The position numbers were made by a program, and so were the translations under genes. 64,000 nt of DNA from Escherichia phage saus132: sequence record NC_047884.1. One strand, given 5' to 3'. Below, piece by piece: positions 34,609-48,761 of this stretch (position 1 is its first letter; the number at the start of each line of letters is the position of its first letter). The notes beneath the pieces are model-generated. The model was not told the origin of the DNA and did no database searches. It worked only from the letters and a program-made list of their open reading frames with translations.

Positions 34609-34684
34609 TGGTACACCCACTAGGACTTGAACCTAGAACCCTCCGCTTAAGAGGCGGTAGCTCTAACCATTGAGCTATGGATGT
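34609..34684 (-). tRNA. tRNA-Lys (anticodon CUU)
   Basis: T-arm CTAGG-TTCAAGT-CCTAG; anticodon loop CTCTTAA; D-stem GCTC/GAGC. Confidence 0.55.
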
Positions 34685-42881: not shown

Positions 42882-43777
42882 TTTAGGTATTTTTAAGAAC
42901 TCTTATAAAAGCTCTTAAAGATACCCGACGGTAGGTAGGGTCAGCCCCCTCAGATTAAGCTCTGCAGCCCTTCCGTCAGACAATATCTTCCAGTTTAAGT
43001 CAGGGTGACTTTGTGGTTATGTTCTCCGTATGTGAAGAACTCGGTTAGGCTTAGGTCATGACTCCCAGCCTACTGCTGCCGCTCAACAGGAATTATCGCG
43101 AATTACCTGTACTATTGGGCACCATTAGTGACATCTCTCATGTCAGCGTTTCCCACTCTCATATTCACGCGGTCTGTTAGAATCGCACCTCCGATTTTCG
43201 ATGCGAAGCTGGATGCCTAGTCTCAGGTTAAACGGGGCACACACTAGGCAGTGATCCCGAGTTCCGAGTTTGGTTGAGGCCGTCAGGTTTCCTCGTGGTT
43301 TAGCTGTTTCGATTCTAACCTAATACTGATCAGGTGGCGTACCTCCTGAACTGTCATAGTATGTACTCCAGCAGCGAATGCTTATCCGGTATAAGCCCGA
43401 GTTATCTGATTCTTTCCGACCGCAGGATTCGAACCTGCATCTTCCACCAGTTACGGTTTGATATTACCGTTTATACTAGGACGGCAGTGTTATCACATAA
43501 GTCAGTTCGACACCCCACTAACATAAACTAGAGAAGAGTTTACGAGATTTCGGGACAGCTCCCGAGTTTTCCGCAGATTTTCAGTTCCCTATCAATAGCA
43601 ATAAGCGTTAGCTCGTAGCCTCTCTCAGAGTACTTACTAGTCTCCAACTCACCGACTCTATTCAGTGGAATAGCTATCCTAGTAGGAATCACTAAACTCA
43701 CTCAGCGTAATCGGCTCGCTGTTCTCTAATTTATGAATCTATTATACAGAATTTTGAGGCGTTTAGCAAATCAATTT

Positions 43778-44459: not shown

Positions 44460-44909
44460 TTAAGTTTTCTTAACCACAGGCTTGTAGAATGTATGGCCTT
44501 GAATCTTCGTTGTTTTCTTAAACTTCTTTGTCCAGTACGGTTTATCTTTACCACTATGGAAGTATAACGCTCCATGTGTTGGATCTTGTGGTAAATCAAC
44601 GTAGTATATCACTCTAGCTAAATTCTTAGCAACTTGCCAAGCCTCATCGGTTTTATCAACTTTTGGTCTCCTGGCCACCCAAGAGAACTGGTTAGACTGA
44701 TATACTACTTTACAGTAAGAATCAGGAAAAGTACCAGAGTTAACACGGTTTTTAGTAACCTGTGCAACTGCGATCATTCCTTTAGTGCCCTCACCTCGTG
44801 CTTCGAAGTAGATATTTTTTGCAATGCAATCAATCTGCTTTGAGTCGTAGGTCGCATGACTATTGAAGCTATAGGTTAGGGCAGCTATTAAAAGCAAAGC
44901 TGCCTTCAT
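44460..44909 (-). CDS. cell-wall hydrolase (SleB/Hydrolase_2-like) with signal peptide
   Basis: NIYFEARGE...GMIAVAQVTKNRV motif; start set to ATG after GGAG RBS. Confidence 0.5.
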   Translation of the reverse strand: MKAALLLIAALTYSFNSHATYDSKQIDCIAKNIYFEARGEGTKGMIAVAQVTKNRVNSGTFPDSYCKVVYQSNQFSWVARRPKVDKTDEAWQVAKNLARVIYYVDLPQDPTHGALYFHSGKDKPYWTKKFKKTTKIQGHTFYKPVVKKT

Positions 44910-44914
44910 TTTAT

Positions 44915-45232
44915 TTACTCCGGCCAATCGTACTCAATACGATTAGGGCTTTCTTGATACCCTTCGTCTAAGAGATCATTACGCATGGTCTCTTTAGCTA
45001 CTGGGTTCGAGGTTACTAGTACCACTTTCTTGGGTCTCTGACCAAATTCTAGGAGTAAACGAAGAATTTGATAACCTTCCATACCATCTACAGCCAGATC
45101 GTTATCCATATAAACGAAATGACCTGTGGTATCGGTTTTATTCAGAAACTCAACAGCGGCTTCGGGGGTTCGAATGATAATGTCCATTCCATGAAGGTTA
45201 CGCACATCATCAATCAGAATATGAAAAATCAT
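44915..45232 (-). CDS. hypothetical protein
   Basis: 105-aa ORF. Confidence 0.45.
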   Translation of the reverse strand: MIFHILIDDVRNLHGMDIIIRTPEAAVEFLNKTDTTGHFVYMDNDLAVDGMEGYQILRLLLEFGQRPKKVVLVTSNPVAKETMRNDLLDEGYQESPNRIEYDWPE

Positions 45233-45675
45233 AATAGCCTCGTCTCATCAATTTAAAAATATATTATACAGAAAACTAAACTAATTAGCAAATACATTTT
45301 TAAATTGAGAGACTAGTAAACCGATAAACAGCCTAGAGGCGCCACAGGCCATATCTTATGAGCCATGTACCTTTGATCTAGGGTTTGAATCATCAACGAA
45401 TACTTTGCATCTTTTAGCTTTAGAAGGTTAGAAGTTTGAGTGCTTTTAACTTTTCAGCTTTCATACTTGAGCGTTGATCTTTGAAGTTGTGTTGGTACTA
45501 CCAACGACCTTTTGTTTTTACGTGTCAGATTAAATGTCTGATGTAATAAACATAATCTCCAATAGATTATACTTTATAGTATGGTCAGCGGTCTTATTTA
45601 ACCTCGTATTTCAACCGCTGCTGCGAGGTAAGATGCTTGGGCTTTCGTCTACCGATTTACTAGTCTTTTAAATTA

Positions 45676-46314
45676 TTACTCTACTTCGATAAAAGTAGAG
45701 GCGTTGGACTCAGACAGAACAAAGTCAACGTTAGTTGCAAAGTCCTGGTATTCTTCGTCGTGTTGCTTGATCAGCTTTTCCAGCTCCAGCGGATCGATCA
45801 GGAACGGAGTGTTCTTGAGTTCCAGCAGGTTAAGCTGCATCTTAACTTCATCCTCGGAAGTCTTCTTGTCGCGGGTAGCCATGGTATCCTGCAAACGCTC
45901 ATACTTGGCATCAAACTGAGCCTTCTGAGTGTTAAACTTAACAGTAGCAGCATGGAACTGCTTACGCATGTTAGCCAGCAACTGAGCCTTGAGTTCCATA
46001 GAACGCTTAGCTTCGATTGCTTCCGCAACAGTCATAGAGCGAGAGCCGATCTCTACAACAGTTTCAGCATTGCTCTTGATCAGCGCAGCTTTCAGACGAT
46101 CACGCTGGGACATCATATCCAGCAGAGACTGGAAATCAGTCTTAATACGAGTAGACAGAGCATCTACTTCGATTGCAGCGCCAACTACAACTTGGTTCTT
46201 GTCCTTACCTTCACCAACAGCAATCAAAAGCTGTTGTTCAGTAGCTTTACGGATTTTAGCTTCCAGAGACTTGATAGTTGCCAGAGCACGAGTTTTAGAG
46301 ATACGAGTAGTCAT
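45676..46314 (-). CDS. coiled-coil protein, GC-rich gene
   Basis: 212 aa; AAGGAAG RBS; codon usage markedly more GC-rich than neighbours. Confidence 0.5.
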   Translation of the reverse strand: MTTRISKTRALATIKSLEAKIRKATEQQLLIAVGEGKDKNQVVVGAAIEVDALSTRIKTDFQSLLDMMSQRDRLKAALIKSNAETVVEIGSRSMTVAEAIEAKRSMELKAQLLANMRKQFHAATVKFNTQKAQFDAKYERLQDTMATRDKKTSEDEVKMQLNLLELKNTPFLIDPLELEKLIKQHDEEYQDFATNVDFVLSESNASTFIEVE

Positions 46315-46367
46315 TATTTGCTTCCTTATATGAAGTTTGAGATTTGAATTTGTTTTAAAATGGTCTA

Positions 46368-46550
46368 TTACAGACCGATTGCCAGCAGAGTGCGCAGAAC
46401 AGTATCAGAACTGTTATCAATATTCGGATTAGCGCGATTCAGCACGTTAAAGATTTTCTGGATGCCGGACTGACGCTCAGCCATACGACGCAGACCCAGG
46501 TTACGTTTTGCTACTTTACCATTTTTACGGACGTTTTTAGATACTGGCAT
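46368..46550 (-). CDS. hypothetical small basic protein
   Basis: 60-aa ORF. Confidence 0.35.
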   Translation of the reverse strand: MPVSKNVRKNGKVAKRNLGLRRMAERQSGIQKIFNVLNRANPNIDNSSDTVLRTLLAIGL

Positions 46551-46620
46551 AATTATTTTCCTTTTGTTGTTCTCTCAAATTTATGAATATATTATACAGA
46601 ATTTTGGAGCTGAAAGCAAA

Positions 46621-47322
46621 TCAAATTTTGATTTTTTCGATCATGATGGCTACACAATAACTTTCAACTAAAGCATCGAATGCTGGATCATGCTTCACGG
46701 GATAGATTCCATAACGAATGGTGTCCATCTTTTCCATTTTAGCTTTTGCCCAGCTAGCACCTTCGGCTTCTAGATCTTTATAACTATAACCAGCTTGCAT
46801 CCACTGATTACGGAAAGATCGAACGTTACCTAAGTTCCAGAATTTCCACGGAACTATTTCTTCATGGGTTCCGGCATGGAACGTATTTGCAGAGTAGATA
46901 GTCATATCAAACTCTGGGCCATTGCCGTAATACAGAGCATTATCTCCTAGAGACAATTCCATAATGTTCTGAGCCATAGAGAAGGCAGCGTAATTAGAAC
47001 CTACATCATTAGTGCAGTGATGCTTACCATCACGGAAGGCAATCAGTTTCGGATTGCGATTAGTCAATGCTTCTACTATATGGCAAGCTGAAGTACTCAG
47101 TCTAGCTTGTTCCATCCAGAATGCAATAGTAGAGGCAGTTACCTTAGCACCCGCATTAAGCTGATCCTGAACGTCTAGAGTAACGAAAACCAGATCAGGA
47201 TCTTTATCAATTCCGTGCATCGCTACAAAAGCGAAAGAAGGCATTGCGATATGAGTAGTACCGCAATTTCCTGGAGTACCTAGAGATTCAATGTCCAGCA
47301 TACCAAAGGGCTTGAATTTCAT
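46621..47322 (-). CDS. exonuclease (DexA-like)
   Basis: 233 aa; LDIESLG and KFWNLGNVR motifs resemble T4 DexA. Confidence 0.4.
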   Translation of the reverse strand: MKFKPFGMLDIESLGTPGNCGTTHIAMPSFAFVAMHGIDKDPDLVFVTLDVQDQLNAGAKVTASTIAFWMEQARLSTSACHIVEALTNRNPKLIAFRDGKHHCTNDVGSNYAAFSMAQNIMELSLGDNALYYGNGPEFDMTIYSANTFHAGTHEEIVPWKFWNLGNVRSFRNQWMQAGYSYKDLEAEGASWAKAKMEKMDTIRYGIYPVKHDPAFDALVESYCVAIMIEKIKI

Positions 47323-47352
47323 AATTATGTCCTTTATTGTTGTAGAAAACTA

Positions 47353-47565
47353 TTAAAGAGCTGTCTCTTTAATAGACTCCCACTGTTTGGGGTCTTTCAG
47401 AGGAATTTCCTCTTCTTCAAACAGGTCTGTTCCATTTTCGTTAACATCCCAGTTTTCTTCCATGATTTCTTCTAGAAGCTCATGTTTAGAAAGACGAGTG
47501 TAGTCTCTAGCAGACTTATGAGTGCTAGCACGGTTAAAATCATTCTTTGCAACGAAGTTACGCAT
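47353..47565 (-). CDS. hypothetical acidic protein
   Basis: 70-aa ORF. Confidence 0.4.
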   Translation of the reverse strand: MRNFVAKNDFNRASTHKSARDYTRLSKHELLEEIMEENWDVNENGTDLFEEEEIPLKDPKQWESIKETAL

Positions 47566-47570
47566 AGTTT

Positions 47571-47596
47571 CTCCAAATAAGAGGGGCTTTCGCCCC
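47571..47596 (-). terminator. putative intrinsic terminator (GGGGCTTTCGCCCC hairpin)
   Basis: hairpin recurs near 47861 and 53728. Confidence 0.45.
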
Positions 47597-47606
47597 CTGA
47601 TTTAAA

Positions 47607-47822
47607 TTACTTGCCCAGTAGTTTAAGGATATTTTCCTTAATAGTTTGAGCAGATTTTTCACTCTTATTGGTTTCAGCCAGTTTCAGAGCGAGTTCTTCC
47701 TGCTGTTTCTGAATATCAGCAGCAGTTTTCTGGTCAGCTTCAATACGAGCTTGAAGTTCATCAGTAATAGTGGTAAAGGAAGCAACGATTTCAGTAACGG
47801 AACGTGGTTTCTTAGAGAACAT
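47607..47822 (-). CDS. hypothetical coiled-coil protein
   Basis: 71-aa ORF. Confidence 0.4.
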   Translation of the reverse strand: MFSKKPRSVTEIVASFTTITDELQARIEADQKTAADIQKQQEELALKLAETNKSEKSAQTIKENILKLLGK

Positions 47823-47860
47823 AAAAATATCCTTAATTAGTCAGAGAAAGAGTTAATATA

Positions 47861-47876
47861 TGGGGCTTTCGCCCCA
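47861..47876 (-). terminator. putative intrinsic terminator (GGGGCTTTCGCCCC hairpin)
   Basis: same hairpin core. Confidence 0.45.
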
Positions 47877-47883
47877 TCAATCA

Positions 47884-48399
47884 TTACTTCGCTTTACGCT
47901 TACGAGCAGGTTTAGCGGATTTACGATCAGAAGCACCAGTAAACTTAATACCGATACCATAGCACAGAGCGCGAACGTTGTCACGGCTGTACTCTACACC
48001 GAAGATATTCGGTTTAACGGAGCCAAACTGTCCACGCGATTCACGCATTACGTCAGCCATTGGCTTACGCTTCTGATTGACTGCTTTTTCGTAGTCTTTC
48101 AGAGCCATACCGTTGCGGGCGAACATTTCAGCACCGCCGTTAAAGCTCAGAGTTACCGGTACAGACTTATGACCTTCACCCTTGATGAACACAACCTGCT
48201 TAGCAGTTGCGCGAGTAGAGTTCTTGGCCTTCGGCTTCTGGCGAACCGGAGCCGGAGACTTCAGGGCAGTCTGAGCCTGAGCATCAGTAGGATGCTTACG
48301 CAGATGACGTTCCAGACGAGCCTTACGATTGGCTTCGGTCTGAGCGAAAGTTTTAACTGCCGGAGCTGCCTGAGTTTTTGCGTTTTTCTGCTTAGCCAT
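47884..48399 (-). CDS. basic Lys/Ala-rich protein (putative nucleic-acid binding), GC-rich gene
   Basis: 171 aa with K/R/A-rich termini; elevated GC. Confidence 0.5.
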   Translation of the reverse strand: MAKQKNAKTQAAPAVKTFAQTEANRKARLERHLRKHPTDAQAQTALKSPAPVRQKPKAKNSTRATAKQVVFIKGEGHKSVPVTLSFNGGAEMFARNGMALKDYEKAVNQKRKPMADVMRESRGQFGSVKPNIFGVEYSRDNVRALCYGIGIKFTGASDRKSAKPARKRKAK

Positions 48400-48482
48400 T
48401 ATTTGTTTTCCTTTTTGTTGATCAATTTATGAGATATATTATACGAAATTTTGAAGCGTTTAGCAAATGAATTTTTTAAAAA

Positions 48483-48761
48483 TTATCTGCCAATCATCTT
48501 AGCTTGTTCCTCACTGGAAACGTACTGATAACCACCCTTGTTATACGCAGGAGCAGTACACAGTTTCTTGCGCTCAATTTCTTCTTGAGCTTTGCGTTCC
48601 CTTTCGGCTAATTCTTCGTCTAGGTAAACTAGACGTTGCTCCGGAGGTGGTGGAAGCCTAGTTTCTGGCTCACCAATATTTGCCTTTCTGATCTGACGCG
48701 GAGGTTGTGCGCGTTTTCTCAAAGGTTTAAATCCTAATGAATTTGAGTTGTAAATTCGCAT
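48483..48761 (-). CDS. hypothetical protein
   Basis: 92-aa ORF. Confidence 0.4.
   Translation of the reverse strand: MRIYNSNSLGFKPLRKRAQPPRQIRKANIGEPETRLPPPPEQRLVYLDEELAERERKAQEEIERKKLCTAPAYNKGGYQYVSSEEQAKMIGR

What the first reader, a model, noticed from the sequence alone, without database searches (positions are those of the whole stretch)
45676..48399. GC-rich genes embedded in AT-rich surroundings
The 45676-46550 and 47884-48399 genes have visibly higher GC and host-like codon choice compared with flanking genes. They may have been acquired from a bacterial host or be codon-tuned for very high expression; the 47884 product is a highly basic putative nucleic-acid-binding protein.
Basis: seen in the sequence. 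Interest (0 to 1): 0.4.

Follow-up and report, generated by a model that had tools for sequence, protein, structure and literature searches.

The report
Codon-tuned early phage genes, plus RNA
Three early genes of a T5-like phage are G+C-rich because they use the host's fast-translation codons behind very strong promoters, which is ordinary, but one of them is always followed by a conserved folded RNA that matches no Rfam family.

Summary
The window is the left 64 kb of a T5-like phage (Epseptimavirus). Genes 47884-48399 (171 aa), 45676-46314 (212 aa) and 46368-46550 (60 aa), all on the minus strand, rank 1, 3 and 4 of 108 genes for G+C. The G+C excess comes mostly from synonymous codon choice. 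Their codon use matches E. coli ribosomal-protein genes (CAI 0.67-0.70; phage mean 0.41; z = 6.5-9.7 against resampling), not average E. coli genes. No E. coli genome holds a homolog. The same bias is kept in distant orthologs. The only other phage genes this biased are the major capsid protein and the DNA-binding proteins D5, D11 and D3. The 171-aa gene sits behind the ortholog of T5 promoter P-H207. So the cause is translational selection for high expression, not host acquisition.

An unexpected result: the 'intergenic' 45310-45666, just 3' of the 212-aa gene, is a structured RNA. It has a 21-bp closing helix, 7-nt repeats (NUNAAAG) and a covarying stem-loop. It follows this gene family in 54 of 57 viral and 57 of 60 bacterial loci and has no Rfam match. 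Its function is unknown.

The parts
47884..48399 (-). 171-aa gene, ortholog of T5.089, Pfam DUF7022. The protein is very basic (pI 10.9, +27). It has the highest GC of the window and CAI 0.70.
   Evidence: (PF22887, 268.7 bits)
48438..48466 (-). Sigma-70 early promoter (TTGCTA, 17-nt spacer, TATAAT, A-rich upstream). It is nearly identical to the stretch annotated 'promoter P-H 207' in the T5 record.
47861..47876 (-). G+C-rich hairpin with a GAAA loop (UGGGGC-GAAA-GCCCCA), 8 nt after the stop codon of the 171-aa gene. It is a likely 3'-end or stabilising hairpin.
   Evidence: dG -17.4 kcal/mol, z -4.2
46368..46550 (-). 60-aa gene, ortholog of T5.086, phrog_5252. It is the most basic protein of the phage (pI 11.9), with CAI 0.67. 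It is the first gene of the two-gene unit that also holds the 212-aa gene.
46591..46619 (-). Early promoter (TTGCTT, 17-nt spacer, TATAAT) for the 60-aa and 212-aa genes. It is conserved with the promoter annotated upstream of T5.086.
45676..46314 (-). 212-aa gene, ortholog of T5.085 (97.6% amino-acid identity). The predicted protein is a helical bundle with a DIP1984-like fold. It has the highest GC3 of the window and CAI 0.70. The 'tail fiber protein' label on it looks wrong.
45310..45666 (-). Structured noncoding RNA element directly 3' of the 212-aa gene. It is closed by a 21-bp helix (45666-45646 pairs with 45330-45310).
   Evidence: z -5.4; 10 double-sided changes in KKP_3711, none broken
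45395..45485 (-). Array of about 7-nt repeats, unit N-U-N-A-A-A-G, inside the RNA element.
   Evidence: (autocorrelation peaks at lags 7, 14, 21, 28)
45327..45392 (-). 3' stem-loop domain of the RNA element. Helix P1 pairs 45382-45378 with 45336-45332. This is the only match to covariance model R1 in the 64-kb window.

Best explanation
These are three early (class II) genes of a T5-like phage. Their raised G+C is a by-product of selection for the synonymous codons that E. coli and Salmonella use in their own most highly expressed genes.

Each unit starts at a near-consensus sigma-70 early promoter with a good ribosome-binding site. For the 171-aa gene this is the ortholog of T5 P-H207. The phage therefore makes these proteins fast and in large, stoichiometric amounts, as it does its capsid protein and its DNA-binding proteins D5, D11 and D3.

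Shown here: the composition anomaly, its synonymous origin, its match to host highly-expressed usage, its conservation in orthologs, and the promoters.

Inferred: that the protein levels are actually high.

The 171-aa DUF7022 protein (pI 10.9, partly disordered) most likely coats or binds nucleic acid. This is an inference.

The 212-aa protein is a helical DIP1984-like protein, not a tail fibre. Its gene is followed almost everywhere it occurs by a roughly 300-360-nt folded RNA (closing helix, 7-nt repeat array, covarying stem-loop). It therefore most likely acts on or with this RNA. I think the likeliest arrangement is an oligomer that reads the repeats, but this is an inference.
For: Composition and codon use:
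- CAI against E. coli ribosomal-protein and elongation-factor genes is 0.70, 0.67 and 0.70. These are ranks 5-7 of 153 phage CDS. The phage mean is 0.41 (sd 0.11), the E. coli reference genes score 0.68 on themselves, and ordinary E. coli genes score 0.44.
- The codon table matches: CTG 0.75 (reference 0.79, rest of phage 0.20), CCG 0.63 (0.66, 0.16), ATC 0.77 (0.73, 0.30), CAG 0.86 (0.82, 0.49). There are no AGA, AGG, CGA, CGG, ATA, CTA or TTA codons. GCG, GTG and ACG are rare, unlike in average E. coli genes.
- The reference-free Nc ranks the same six genes lowest among 91 genes of at least 100 aa.

Company and expression:
- The other top genes are the major capsid protein, D5, D11 and D3.
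- D5 was among the most abundant proteins in phiR2-01 proteomics (PMC8624392).
- Elevated CAI in highly expressed phage genes is an established pattern (PMC2266997).

Conservation of the bias in orthologs:
- T5: 0.63, 0.53 and 0.60 against a mean of 0.39.
- KKP_3711: 0.59, 0.62 and 0.71.
- Spivey DUF7022: 0.57.

RNA element:
- Sequence conservation and folding.
- Co-occurrence with the gene.
- Covariation of its helices.
Against: - No direct expression data for these three genes were available. The phiR2-01 supplementary tables are not held.
- Lys AAG is preferred (0.81 and 0.62) although the E. coli reference set prefers AAA. Adaptation to the host pool is therefore not perfect.
- The 60-aa gene is short, and its GC excess alone is only z = 2.9.
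- The AlphaFold model of the 171-aa protein is weak (pLDDT 64) and has no fold or PDB-sequence match. Nucleic-acid binding rests on charge alone.
- Nothing shows that the 212-aa protein binds the RNA. The protein is not basic (pI 6.2).
Confidence: 0.85

Rival explanations
1. The genes were captured from a bacterial host or another G+C-richer genome and still carry the donor's composition.
For: Their GC (0.45-0.50) is close to that of E. coli or Salmonella. The 212-aa family does have chromosomal relatives in Bacillota at 29-38% identity.
Against: - No match in 5,426 E. coli genomes.
- DUF7022 was found almost only in T5-like phages or phage-sized contigs.
- Codon choice fits host ribosomal-protein genes better than average host genes (log-likelihood gain 0.13-0.27 per codon). 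GCG, GTG and ACG are avoided.
- The bias is maintained in orthologs down to 34% identity, where a transferred composition would have decayed.
- The bacterial relatives are in Bacillota, not in the phage's hosts.
Confidence: 0.04
2. The G+C excess only reflects amino-acid composition (Ala, Arg, Gly and Pro-rich basic proteins).
For: The 171-aa gene has GC2 of 0.459 (z = 2.5). With phage-average codons its sequence would still reach GC 0.444, against a phage mean of 0.395.
Against: - Amino-acid composition explains about half of the excess in the 171-aa gene.
- It explains almost none in the 212-aa gene (expected 0.397, observed 0.460) or the 60-aa gene (expected 0.402, observed 0.454).
- GC3 and CAI are strongly deviant given the protein sequence.
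Confidence: 0.08
3. The composition reflects a second, overlapping gene on the opposite strand. Long antisense ORFs cover both genes: 195 aa and 190 aa here, 265 aa in T5.
For: The antisense ORFs span nearly the whole genes.
Against: - All of them lie in the codon-aligned antisense frame. In that frame stop codons can arise only from sense TTA, CTA or TCA.
- These three genes contain none of those codons, against 4.6% in other phage genes.
- The ORF antisense to the 171-aa gene shrinks to 87 aa in T5.
Confidence: 0.02
4. The conserved stretch 45310-45666 is a DNA element, such as an origin of replication or an array of protein-binding sites, rather than an RNA.
For: Short repeats at a fixed spacing and inverted repeats are also typical of origins and iteron arrays. 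No transcript data are available.
Against: - Several helix positions are G-U pairs on the gene's strand. There are four invariant ones in the 21-bp closing helix and more in helix P1. On the other strand these would be A-C mismatches.
- The repeat period is 7 nt, not one DNA helical turn.
- The element is always on the gene's strand and 3' of the gene.
- In Solibacillus it lies between the stop codon and an intrinsic terminator.
- In phages it lies within same-strand tRNA clusters.
Confidence: 0.1

Closest known systems
Translational selection on highly expressed phage genes (host-preferred codons in capsid and tail genes; Lucks et al. 2008, PMC2266997; early T7 and lambda work cited there)
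   Same: CAI and GC3 are raised relative to the rest of the genome given the protein sequence. The codon set is that of host highly expressed genes. The major capsid gene of this phage shows the same signature.
   Different: Here the signature lies in non-structural early genes of unknown function, not in head or tail genes. Lys codon choice (AAG) departs from the host optimum.
T5 early promoter P-H207 and its relatives (P-N25, P-N26), as annotated in NC_005859. From my own knowledge of Gentz and Bujard 1985, these were selected as very efficient E. coli promoters.
   Same: The window stretch 48400-48482 aligns almost base for base with the annotated T5 P-H207 stretch. Both have TTGCTA, a 17-nt spacer, TATAAT and an A-rich upstream part.
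   Different: Promoter activity was not measured for this phage. The papers that report promoter strength are not in the held library.
PDB 3KDQ, an uncharacterised conserved protein of Corynebacterium diphtheriae (from memory, the DIP1984 family)
   Different: Sequence identity is 14%. No Pfam or NCBIfam model matches. The phage protein is about 60 residues longer. The function of 3KDQ is also unknown.
TRAP and HutP: oligomeric RNA-binding proteins that read evenly spaced short repeats (from my own knowledge, HutP reads UAG triplets with 4-nt spacers, a period of 7 nt)
   Same: The RNA next to the 212-aa gene carries two runs of a short motif (AAAG core) with a 7-nt period, in both phage and bacterial copies.
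   Different: There is no sequence or fold similarity to TRAP or HutP. Oligomeric state and binding are untested. The array lies in the 3' region of the protein's own gene, not in a 5' leader.

Membership tests
Genes under translational selection for high expression | Codon adaptation far above what the protein sequence and genome-wide usage predict | tested here: met
   CAI z = 9.7, 6.5 and 7.1; 0 of 2000 resamples reach the observed value. Nc ranks 3 and 5 of 91.
Genes under translational selection for high expression | Preferred codons are those of host highly expressed genes, not of average host genes | tested here: met
   Correlation of codon fractions is 0.84 with E. coli ribosomal-protein and elongation-factor genes, 0.67 with ordinary E. 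coli genes and 0.65 with the rest of the phage.
Genes under translational selection for high expression | Bias maintained in diverged orthologs | tested here: met
   T5, KKP_3711 and Spivey.
Genes under translational selection for high expression | Measured high protein or mRNA abundance | not testable with these tools
   There is only indirect support. The P-H207 ortholog lies upstream, and D5, which shows the same bias, is abundant in phiR2-01.
Horizontally acquired host gene | Homolog present in host genomes | tested here: not met
   No coding match in 5,426 E. coli genomes. DUF7022 was found almost only in T5-like phages or phage-sized contigs.
Horizontally acquired host gene | Composition of an average gene of the donor | tested here: not met
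   GCG 0.06 against 0.35, GTG 0.08 against 0.37, ACG 0.02 against 0.26 in ordinary E. coli genes.
Pfam DUF7022 (PF22887) | Score above the gathering threshold over the full length | tested here: met
   268.7 bits against a cut-off of 27; residues 1-169 align to profile positions 1-166.
Phage tail fiber protein (label on the 212-aa gene and phrog_1491) | Fibre-like fold and location in the late structural module | tested here: not met
   The model is a helical bundle (pLDDT 89). No fibre protein is among the listed fold matches. The gene lies in the early region behind an early-type promoter. Relatives sit in bacterial chromosomes and in tRNA clusters.
DIP1984-like proteins (PDB 3KDQ) | Shared fold | tested here: met
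DIP1984-like proteins (PDB 3KDQ) | Significant sequence-profile relationship | tested here: inconclusive
   Profile against PDB gives E = 0.11. No Pfam or NCBIfam hit.
Any Rfam 15 RNA family (for 45310-45666) | Covariance-model match | tested here: not met
   No match at E <= 1 in the window region. No match at gathering scores in 20 related loci other than tRNAs. Nothing at E <= 10 overlaps the 3' stem-loop domain in the Solibacillus copy; one chance-level hit lies further upstream in the 3' region.
Conserved structured RNA | Base pairs kept through compensatory changes | tested here: met
   Helix P1 is 98-99% paired. Pair types at one position are UA 30, AU 13-21, CG and GC. The covariation score is 0.54-0.58, against 0.17-0.19 in shuffles and at most 0.15 with slid partners, in two separate sequence sets. 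The closing helix keeps all 21 pairs through 10 double changes. Caveat: the alignments were fitted to the model.
TRAP/HutP-like repeat-reading ribonucleoprotein | Evenly spaced short RNA repeats | tested here: met
   Period 7 nt, unit NUNAAAG.
TRAP/HutP-like repeat-reading ribonucleoprotein | Oligomeric protein that binds the repeats | not testable with these tools
   Only a monomer model was made. No binding data exist.

The most novel reading that the evidence does not exclude
The 212-aa protein (T5.085 family) and the folded RNA encoded right after it may form an undescribed protein-RNA module. It is shared by many large virulent phages that carry tRNA clusters (T5-like, rV5-like, SPO1/Bastille-like, T4-like contigs, jumbo phages) and by Bacillota chromosomes. 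In this reading an oligomer of the abundant protein reads the 7-nt repeat array. The complex would act in RNA metabolism around tRNA clusters, for example control of read-through, processing or protection of tRNA transcripts, or a decoy for tRNA-directed host defences.
Probability: 0.5. Interest if true: 0.7.

Novelty: new member of a known kind. Interest (0 to 1): 0.45.

Why it matters
The composition anomaly itself is a textbook effect. It is still useful, because it marks three proteins of unknown function as probably among the most abundant early products of T5-like phages, alongside D5, D11 and D3. It also shows that the 'tail fiber protein' label carried by many of the 742 phage records with the 212-aa gene is probably wrong.

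The larger gain is the RNA. It is a roughly 300-360-nt structured element with clear covariation and no Rfam family. It is tied to one protein family in 742 phage records and more than 200 bacterial species, and in phages it often sits inside tRNA clusters. That gives a defined, testable protein-RNA pair in a model phage, T5, whose early functions and tRNA region are still poorly understood.

Tried and rejected
- Host acquisition. Rejected on homolog searches and codon pattern.
- Amino-acid composition as the sole cause. Rejected except as a partial factor for the 171-aa gene.
- Overlapping antisense genes. Rejected, because the open frame follows from the absence of TTA, CTA and TCA codons.
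- Literature. There are no papers for T5.085, T5.086, T5.089 or DUF7022. The P-H207 strength papers are not held. The phiR2-01 supplementary proteome tables are not held. The T5 RNA polymerase-binding study (PMC7472727) and the DRT4/ORF55 study (PMC12783706) concern other genes.
- The afdb50 fold library was unavailable.
- Tandem Repeats Finder does not see the 7-nt array, which is too degenerate.
- A covariance model of the whole 370-nt element was not attempted because of the size limit. I used nhmmer plus a 69-position model of the 3' domain instead.
- The T4-like relative shows only moderate codon bias (Nc 42.9), so high expression outside T5-like phages is not established.
Full report
**What the window is.** A megablast search shows that the window is the left 64 kb of a T5-like phage. 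It differs at 4 of 64000 bases from MF431736.1, 'Bacteriophage T5-like chee130_1', genus Epseptimavirus. The three genes in the finding lie on the minus strand in the early region, between the tRNA cluster and RNase H. They are 45676-46314 (212 aa), 46368-46550 (60 aa) and 47884-48399 (171 aa). In the T5 reference record their orthologs are T5.085, T5.086 and T5.089.

**Checking the observation.**
- Among the 108 annotated CDS of the window the three genes rank 3, 4 and 1 for GC (0.460, 0.454, 0.502; mean 0.390, sd 0.035). They rank 1, 8 and 2 for GC3.
- The highest-GC 500-bp stretch of the entire window is 47901-48400.
- The genes lying next to or between them (46621-47322, 47353-47565, 47607-47822, 48483-48761) are ordinary. 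The anomaly therefore belongs to single genes and not to a region.

**Where the G+C comes from.**
- I rebuilt each gene 2000 times from the same protein sequence, using the synonymous codon frequencies of the rest of the phage. Expected GC is 0.397, 0.402 and 0.444. Observed GC over the same codons is 0.463, 0.463 and 0.506 (z = 6.0, 2.9, 5.3).
- Codon choice therefore explains nearly all of the excess in the 212-aa and 60-aa genes and about half in the 171-aa gene. The rest in the 171-aa gene comes from its Ala, Arg, Lys and Pro-rich composition (GC2 z = 2.5).

**Which codons.**
- I built a reference from 29 E. coli K-12 ribosomal-protein, elongation-factor and rpoA genes, and a background from 34 ordinary genes.
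- CAI against the highly expressed set is 0.70, 0.67 and 0.70. The phage mean is 0.41 (sd 0.11). Ordinary E. coli genes score 0.44, and the reference genes score 0.68 on themselves. No resampled sequence reached the observed CAI (z = 9.7, 6.5, 7.1).
- The table is explicit. CTG makes up 0.75 of Leu codons (reference 0.79, rest of phage 0.20). CCG is 0.63 (0.66, 0.16), ATC 0.77 (0.73, 0.30) and CAG 0.86 (0.82, 0.49). Only CGT and CGC are used for Arg. There are no ATA, CTA or TTA codons.
- For Ala, Thr, Ser and Val the genes use the T-ending codons of ribosomal-protein genes. They avoid the GCG, ACG and GTG of average E. coli genes.
- This pattern separates 'tuned to the host's translation optimum' from 'copied from the host'.
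- The effective number of codons, which needs no reference, gives the same result. The lowest values among 91 genes of at least 100 aa are the major capsid protein 30.4, the D11 ortholog 31.0, the 212-aa gene 32.2, the D5 ortholog 32.5, the 171-aa gene 34.1 and the D3 ortholog 35.2.

**The company they keep.**
- By the T5 annotation, the other genes with this signature encode the major capsid protein, D5 (a DNA-binding protein needed for replication and late transcription), D11 (annotated as single-strand DNA-binding protein) and D3 (annotated as DNA-binding protein, directly behind promoter P-N26).
- All of these are proteins needed in stoichiometric amounts.
- In the T5-like Yersinia phage phiR2-01, D5 was among the most abundant proteins by spectral count although it is not structural (PMC8624392).
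- Elevated CAI in highly expressed phage genes is an established pattern (PMC2266997).

**Promoters and transcript ends.**
- The T5 record annotates 'promoter P-H 207' immediately upstream of T5.089. The window sequence there is almost identical: TTGCTA, 17 nt, TATAAT at 48466-48438, with an A-rich upstream part.
- From my own knowledge, P-H207 is one of the T5 promoters isolated by Gentz and Bujard (1985) for very high efficiency. I could not read that paper here.
- A second promoter of the same type (46619-46591) precedes the 60-aa and 212-aa pair.
- A stable G+C hairpin with a GAAA loop follows the 171-aa gene (47876-47861; dG -17.4 kcal/mol, z = -4.2).

**Conservation of the bias, and the host-origin test.**
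- In T5 the three orthologs have CAI 0.63, 0.53 and 0.60 against a mean of 0.39.
- In Enterobacter phage KKP_3711 the DUF7022 protein is only about 34% identical, yet the values are 0.59, 0.62 and 0.71.
- In Klebsiella phage Spivey the DUF7022 gene scores 0.57 against a mean of 0.38.
- A composition inherited from a donor would not be kept in this way.
- A blastn search of 5,426 complete E. coli genomes finds no coding match. It finds only about 60-70 nt of the promoter in ten genomes. I take those to be engineered T5-promoter insertions, but I did not check this.
- DUF7022 was found almost only in T5-like phages or phage-sized contigs. Host acquisition is rejected.

**The antisense ORFs.** Long ORFs run antisense to both larger genes: 195 and 190 aa here, 265 aa in T5. 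All are in the codon-aligned antisense frame. In that frame stop codons can arise only from sense TTA, CTA or TCA. These genes have none of those codons, against 4.6% in other phage genes. The ORFs are a side effect of the codon bias.

**The proteins.**
- *The 171-aa protein.* It is the second most basic protein of the phage (pI 10.9, +27). Its AlphaFold model is only partly confident (pLDDT 64; a helical hairpin at residues 19-47 scores 84-89). It has no fold or PDB-sequence match. A profile search of 1.8 billion representatives shows that its N-terminal roughly 60 residues (motif NRxxRLxRHLKxHPNDxQA) also occur alone in more than 100 clusters of small basic proteins. In a distant T5-like contig the order RNase H, small gene, DUF7022, DUF7230, cell-wall hydrolase is kept. 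I infer an abundant nucleic-acid-binding role from charge, abundance and context. This is not shown.
- *The 60-aa protein.* It is the most basic of all (pI 11.9). It has no informative match.

**The unexpected part: a structured RNA after the 212-aa gene.**
- *Conservation.* The 443 nt between this gene and the next promoter (45233-45675) have no ORF. Against T5 they are the best-conserved part of the 5-kb region: 92-98% identity, against 66-96% in the coding flanks, even though the 212-aa proteins are 97.6% identical.
- *Folding.* The minus-strand RNA folds far better than shuffled controls (-100.1 against -71.9 +/- 5.2 kcal/mol; z = -5.4).
- *Closing helix.* A 21-bp helix closes it: 45666-45646 pairs with 45330-45310. 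In KKP_3711 all 21 pairs are kept although ten of them changed on both sides. Four of the pairs are invariant G-U pairs, which exist only on the gene's strand.
- *Repeat array.* Inside lies an array of degenerate 7-nt repeats with unit N-U-N-A-A-A-G. Autocorrelation is 0.47, 0.44, 0.39 and 0.375 at lags 7, 14, 21 and 28, against about 0.2 between the peaks.
- *3' stem-loop domain.* It spans 45392-45327.

**How widely the RNA follows the gene.**
- Iterated nhmmer finds the element directly after the gene in 79 of 82 viral copies.
- A 69-position covariance model of the 3' domain (R1) hits exactly once in the 64-kb window.
- R1 also hits once, on the gene's strand and 200-400 nt after the gene, in 54 of 57 viral loci.
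- It hits in Cronobacter phage GAP31, in Bacillus phage Hobo and in the Solibacillus silvestris chromosome.
- It hits in 57 of 60 bacterial loci.
- Phage loci that lack the gene (Spivey, L013) have no convincing hit.

**Covariation and architecture.**
- Helix P1 is 98-99% paired in both sequence sets, with several pair types per position (for example UA 30, AU 21, CG 2, GC 2).
- The covariation score is 0.54-0.58, against 0.17-0.19 in shuffles and at most 0.15 when partners are slid. The caveat is that these alignments were fitted to the model.
- Long closing helices of unrelated sequence are also predicted in GAP31 and Solibacillus (z = -5.6 and -4.6).
- The 7-nt period is present in the bacterial copies too.
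- No Rfam 15 family matches.

**Context of the RNA.**
- In Solibacillus the element lies between the stop codon and an intrinsic terminator, so it is transcribed with the gene.
- In phages the module often sits inside tRNA clusters. All nearby tRNAs are on the same strand in 28 of 28 loci that have any, and a tRNA begins within 150 nt after the element in 15 of 46 loci.

**What this adds up to.** These are very strongly expressed early genes under translational selection, not host-derived genes (confidence about 0.85). Following the 212-aa gene outward shows that it is half of a conserved gene-plus-RNA module that no annotation or RNA family library describes. How the module works is not shown. 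I think the most likely arrangement is that an oligomer of the abundant protein reads the evenly spaced repeats, as HutP and TRAP read theirs. I also think the RNA is released or stabilised through its long closing helix, with a role connected to tRNA-cluster transcripts. I mark this as inference, with roughly even odds that the protein and the RNA act together directly.

Noticed in passing
window 45233-45675 (minus strand); also L121:3211-3532, L122:3443-3512, L010:8632-8910: A conserved structured RNA lies directly 3' of the 212-aa gene. It has a closing helix, an array of 7-nt NUNAAAG repeats and a covarying stem-loop. It is present after nearly every viral and bacterial copy of the gene and has no Rfam family. 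It is described in the main report.
   Followed up: yes
window 45676-46314 and 47884-48399; tRNA-Lys(CUU) at 34609-34684: The 212-aa and 171-aa genes prefer Lys AAG (0.81 and 0.62). E. coli ribosomal-protein genes use 0.32 and the rest of the phage 0.36 (Fisher p about 1e-5 and 9e-5). The phage encodes a tRNA-Lys with anticodon CUU. The other highly biased genes do not share the preference as strongly (0.25-0.47).
   Followed up: partly
window 42882-43777, with a tRNA-like match at 43414-43485 (minus strand): This is about 900 nt with no annotated gene and high GC (0.47-0.49 in 500-bp windows). Rfam's tRNA model matches at 29.3 bits, just above its threshold of 29, but ARAGORN calls nothing there. 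Related phages annotate 'tRNA-Sec' or 'tRNA-OTHER' under parts of the matching stretch. It is probably a decayed or unusual tRNA region.
   Followed up: partly
window 47600-47900: The 71-aa gene 47607-47822, with CAI 0.61, has no counterpart at this position in T5 (an insertion or deletion between the two phages). A GAAA-loop hairpin lies just outside each end of the gene: 47582-47597 just after its stop codon and 47861-47876 upstream of its start.
   Followed up: no
window 45760-46347 (+) and 47860-48432 (+); L003 1365-2162 (+): Gene-length antisense ORFs lie opposite the two biased genes. They are explained by the complete absence of TTA, CTA and TCA codons in the sense frame and are not conserved in length.
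   Followed up: yes
window 46570-46638: About 60-70 nt of the early promoter upstream of the 60-aa gene match the chromosomes of 10 E. coli genomes at 82-86% identity. These include an MG1655 derivative and the CM strains. They are presumably engineered T5-type promoter insertions.
   Followed up: no
window 47884-48399, product residues 1-60: The N-terminal motif of DUF7022 (NRxxRLxRHLKxHPNDxQA) occurs on its own in more than 100 clusters of 60-140-aa basic proteins from metagenomes. It therefore looks like an independent module.
   Followed up: partly
window 44915-45232 and 44460-44909: The two genes downstream of the RNA element encode a receiver-like domain (Pfam cREC_REC, 'cyclic-phosphate processing receiver') and a SleB/CwlJ-type cell-wall hydrolase (Hydrolase_2). 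A Hydrolase_2 gene also lies about 5 kb from the Solibacillus copy of the 212-aa gene. This may be coincidence.
   Followed up: no
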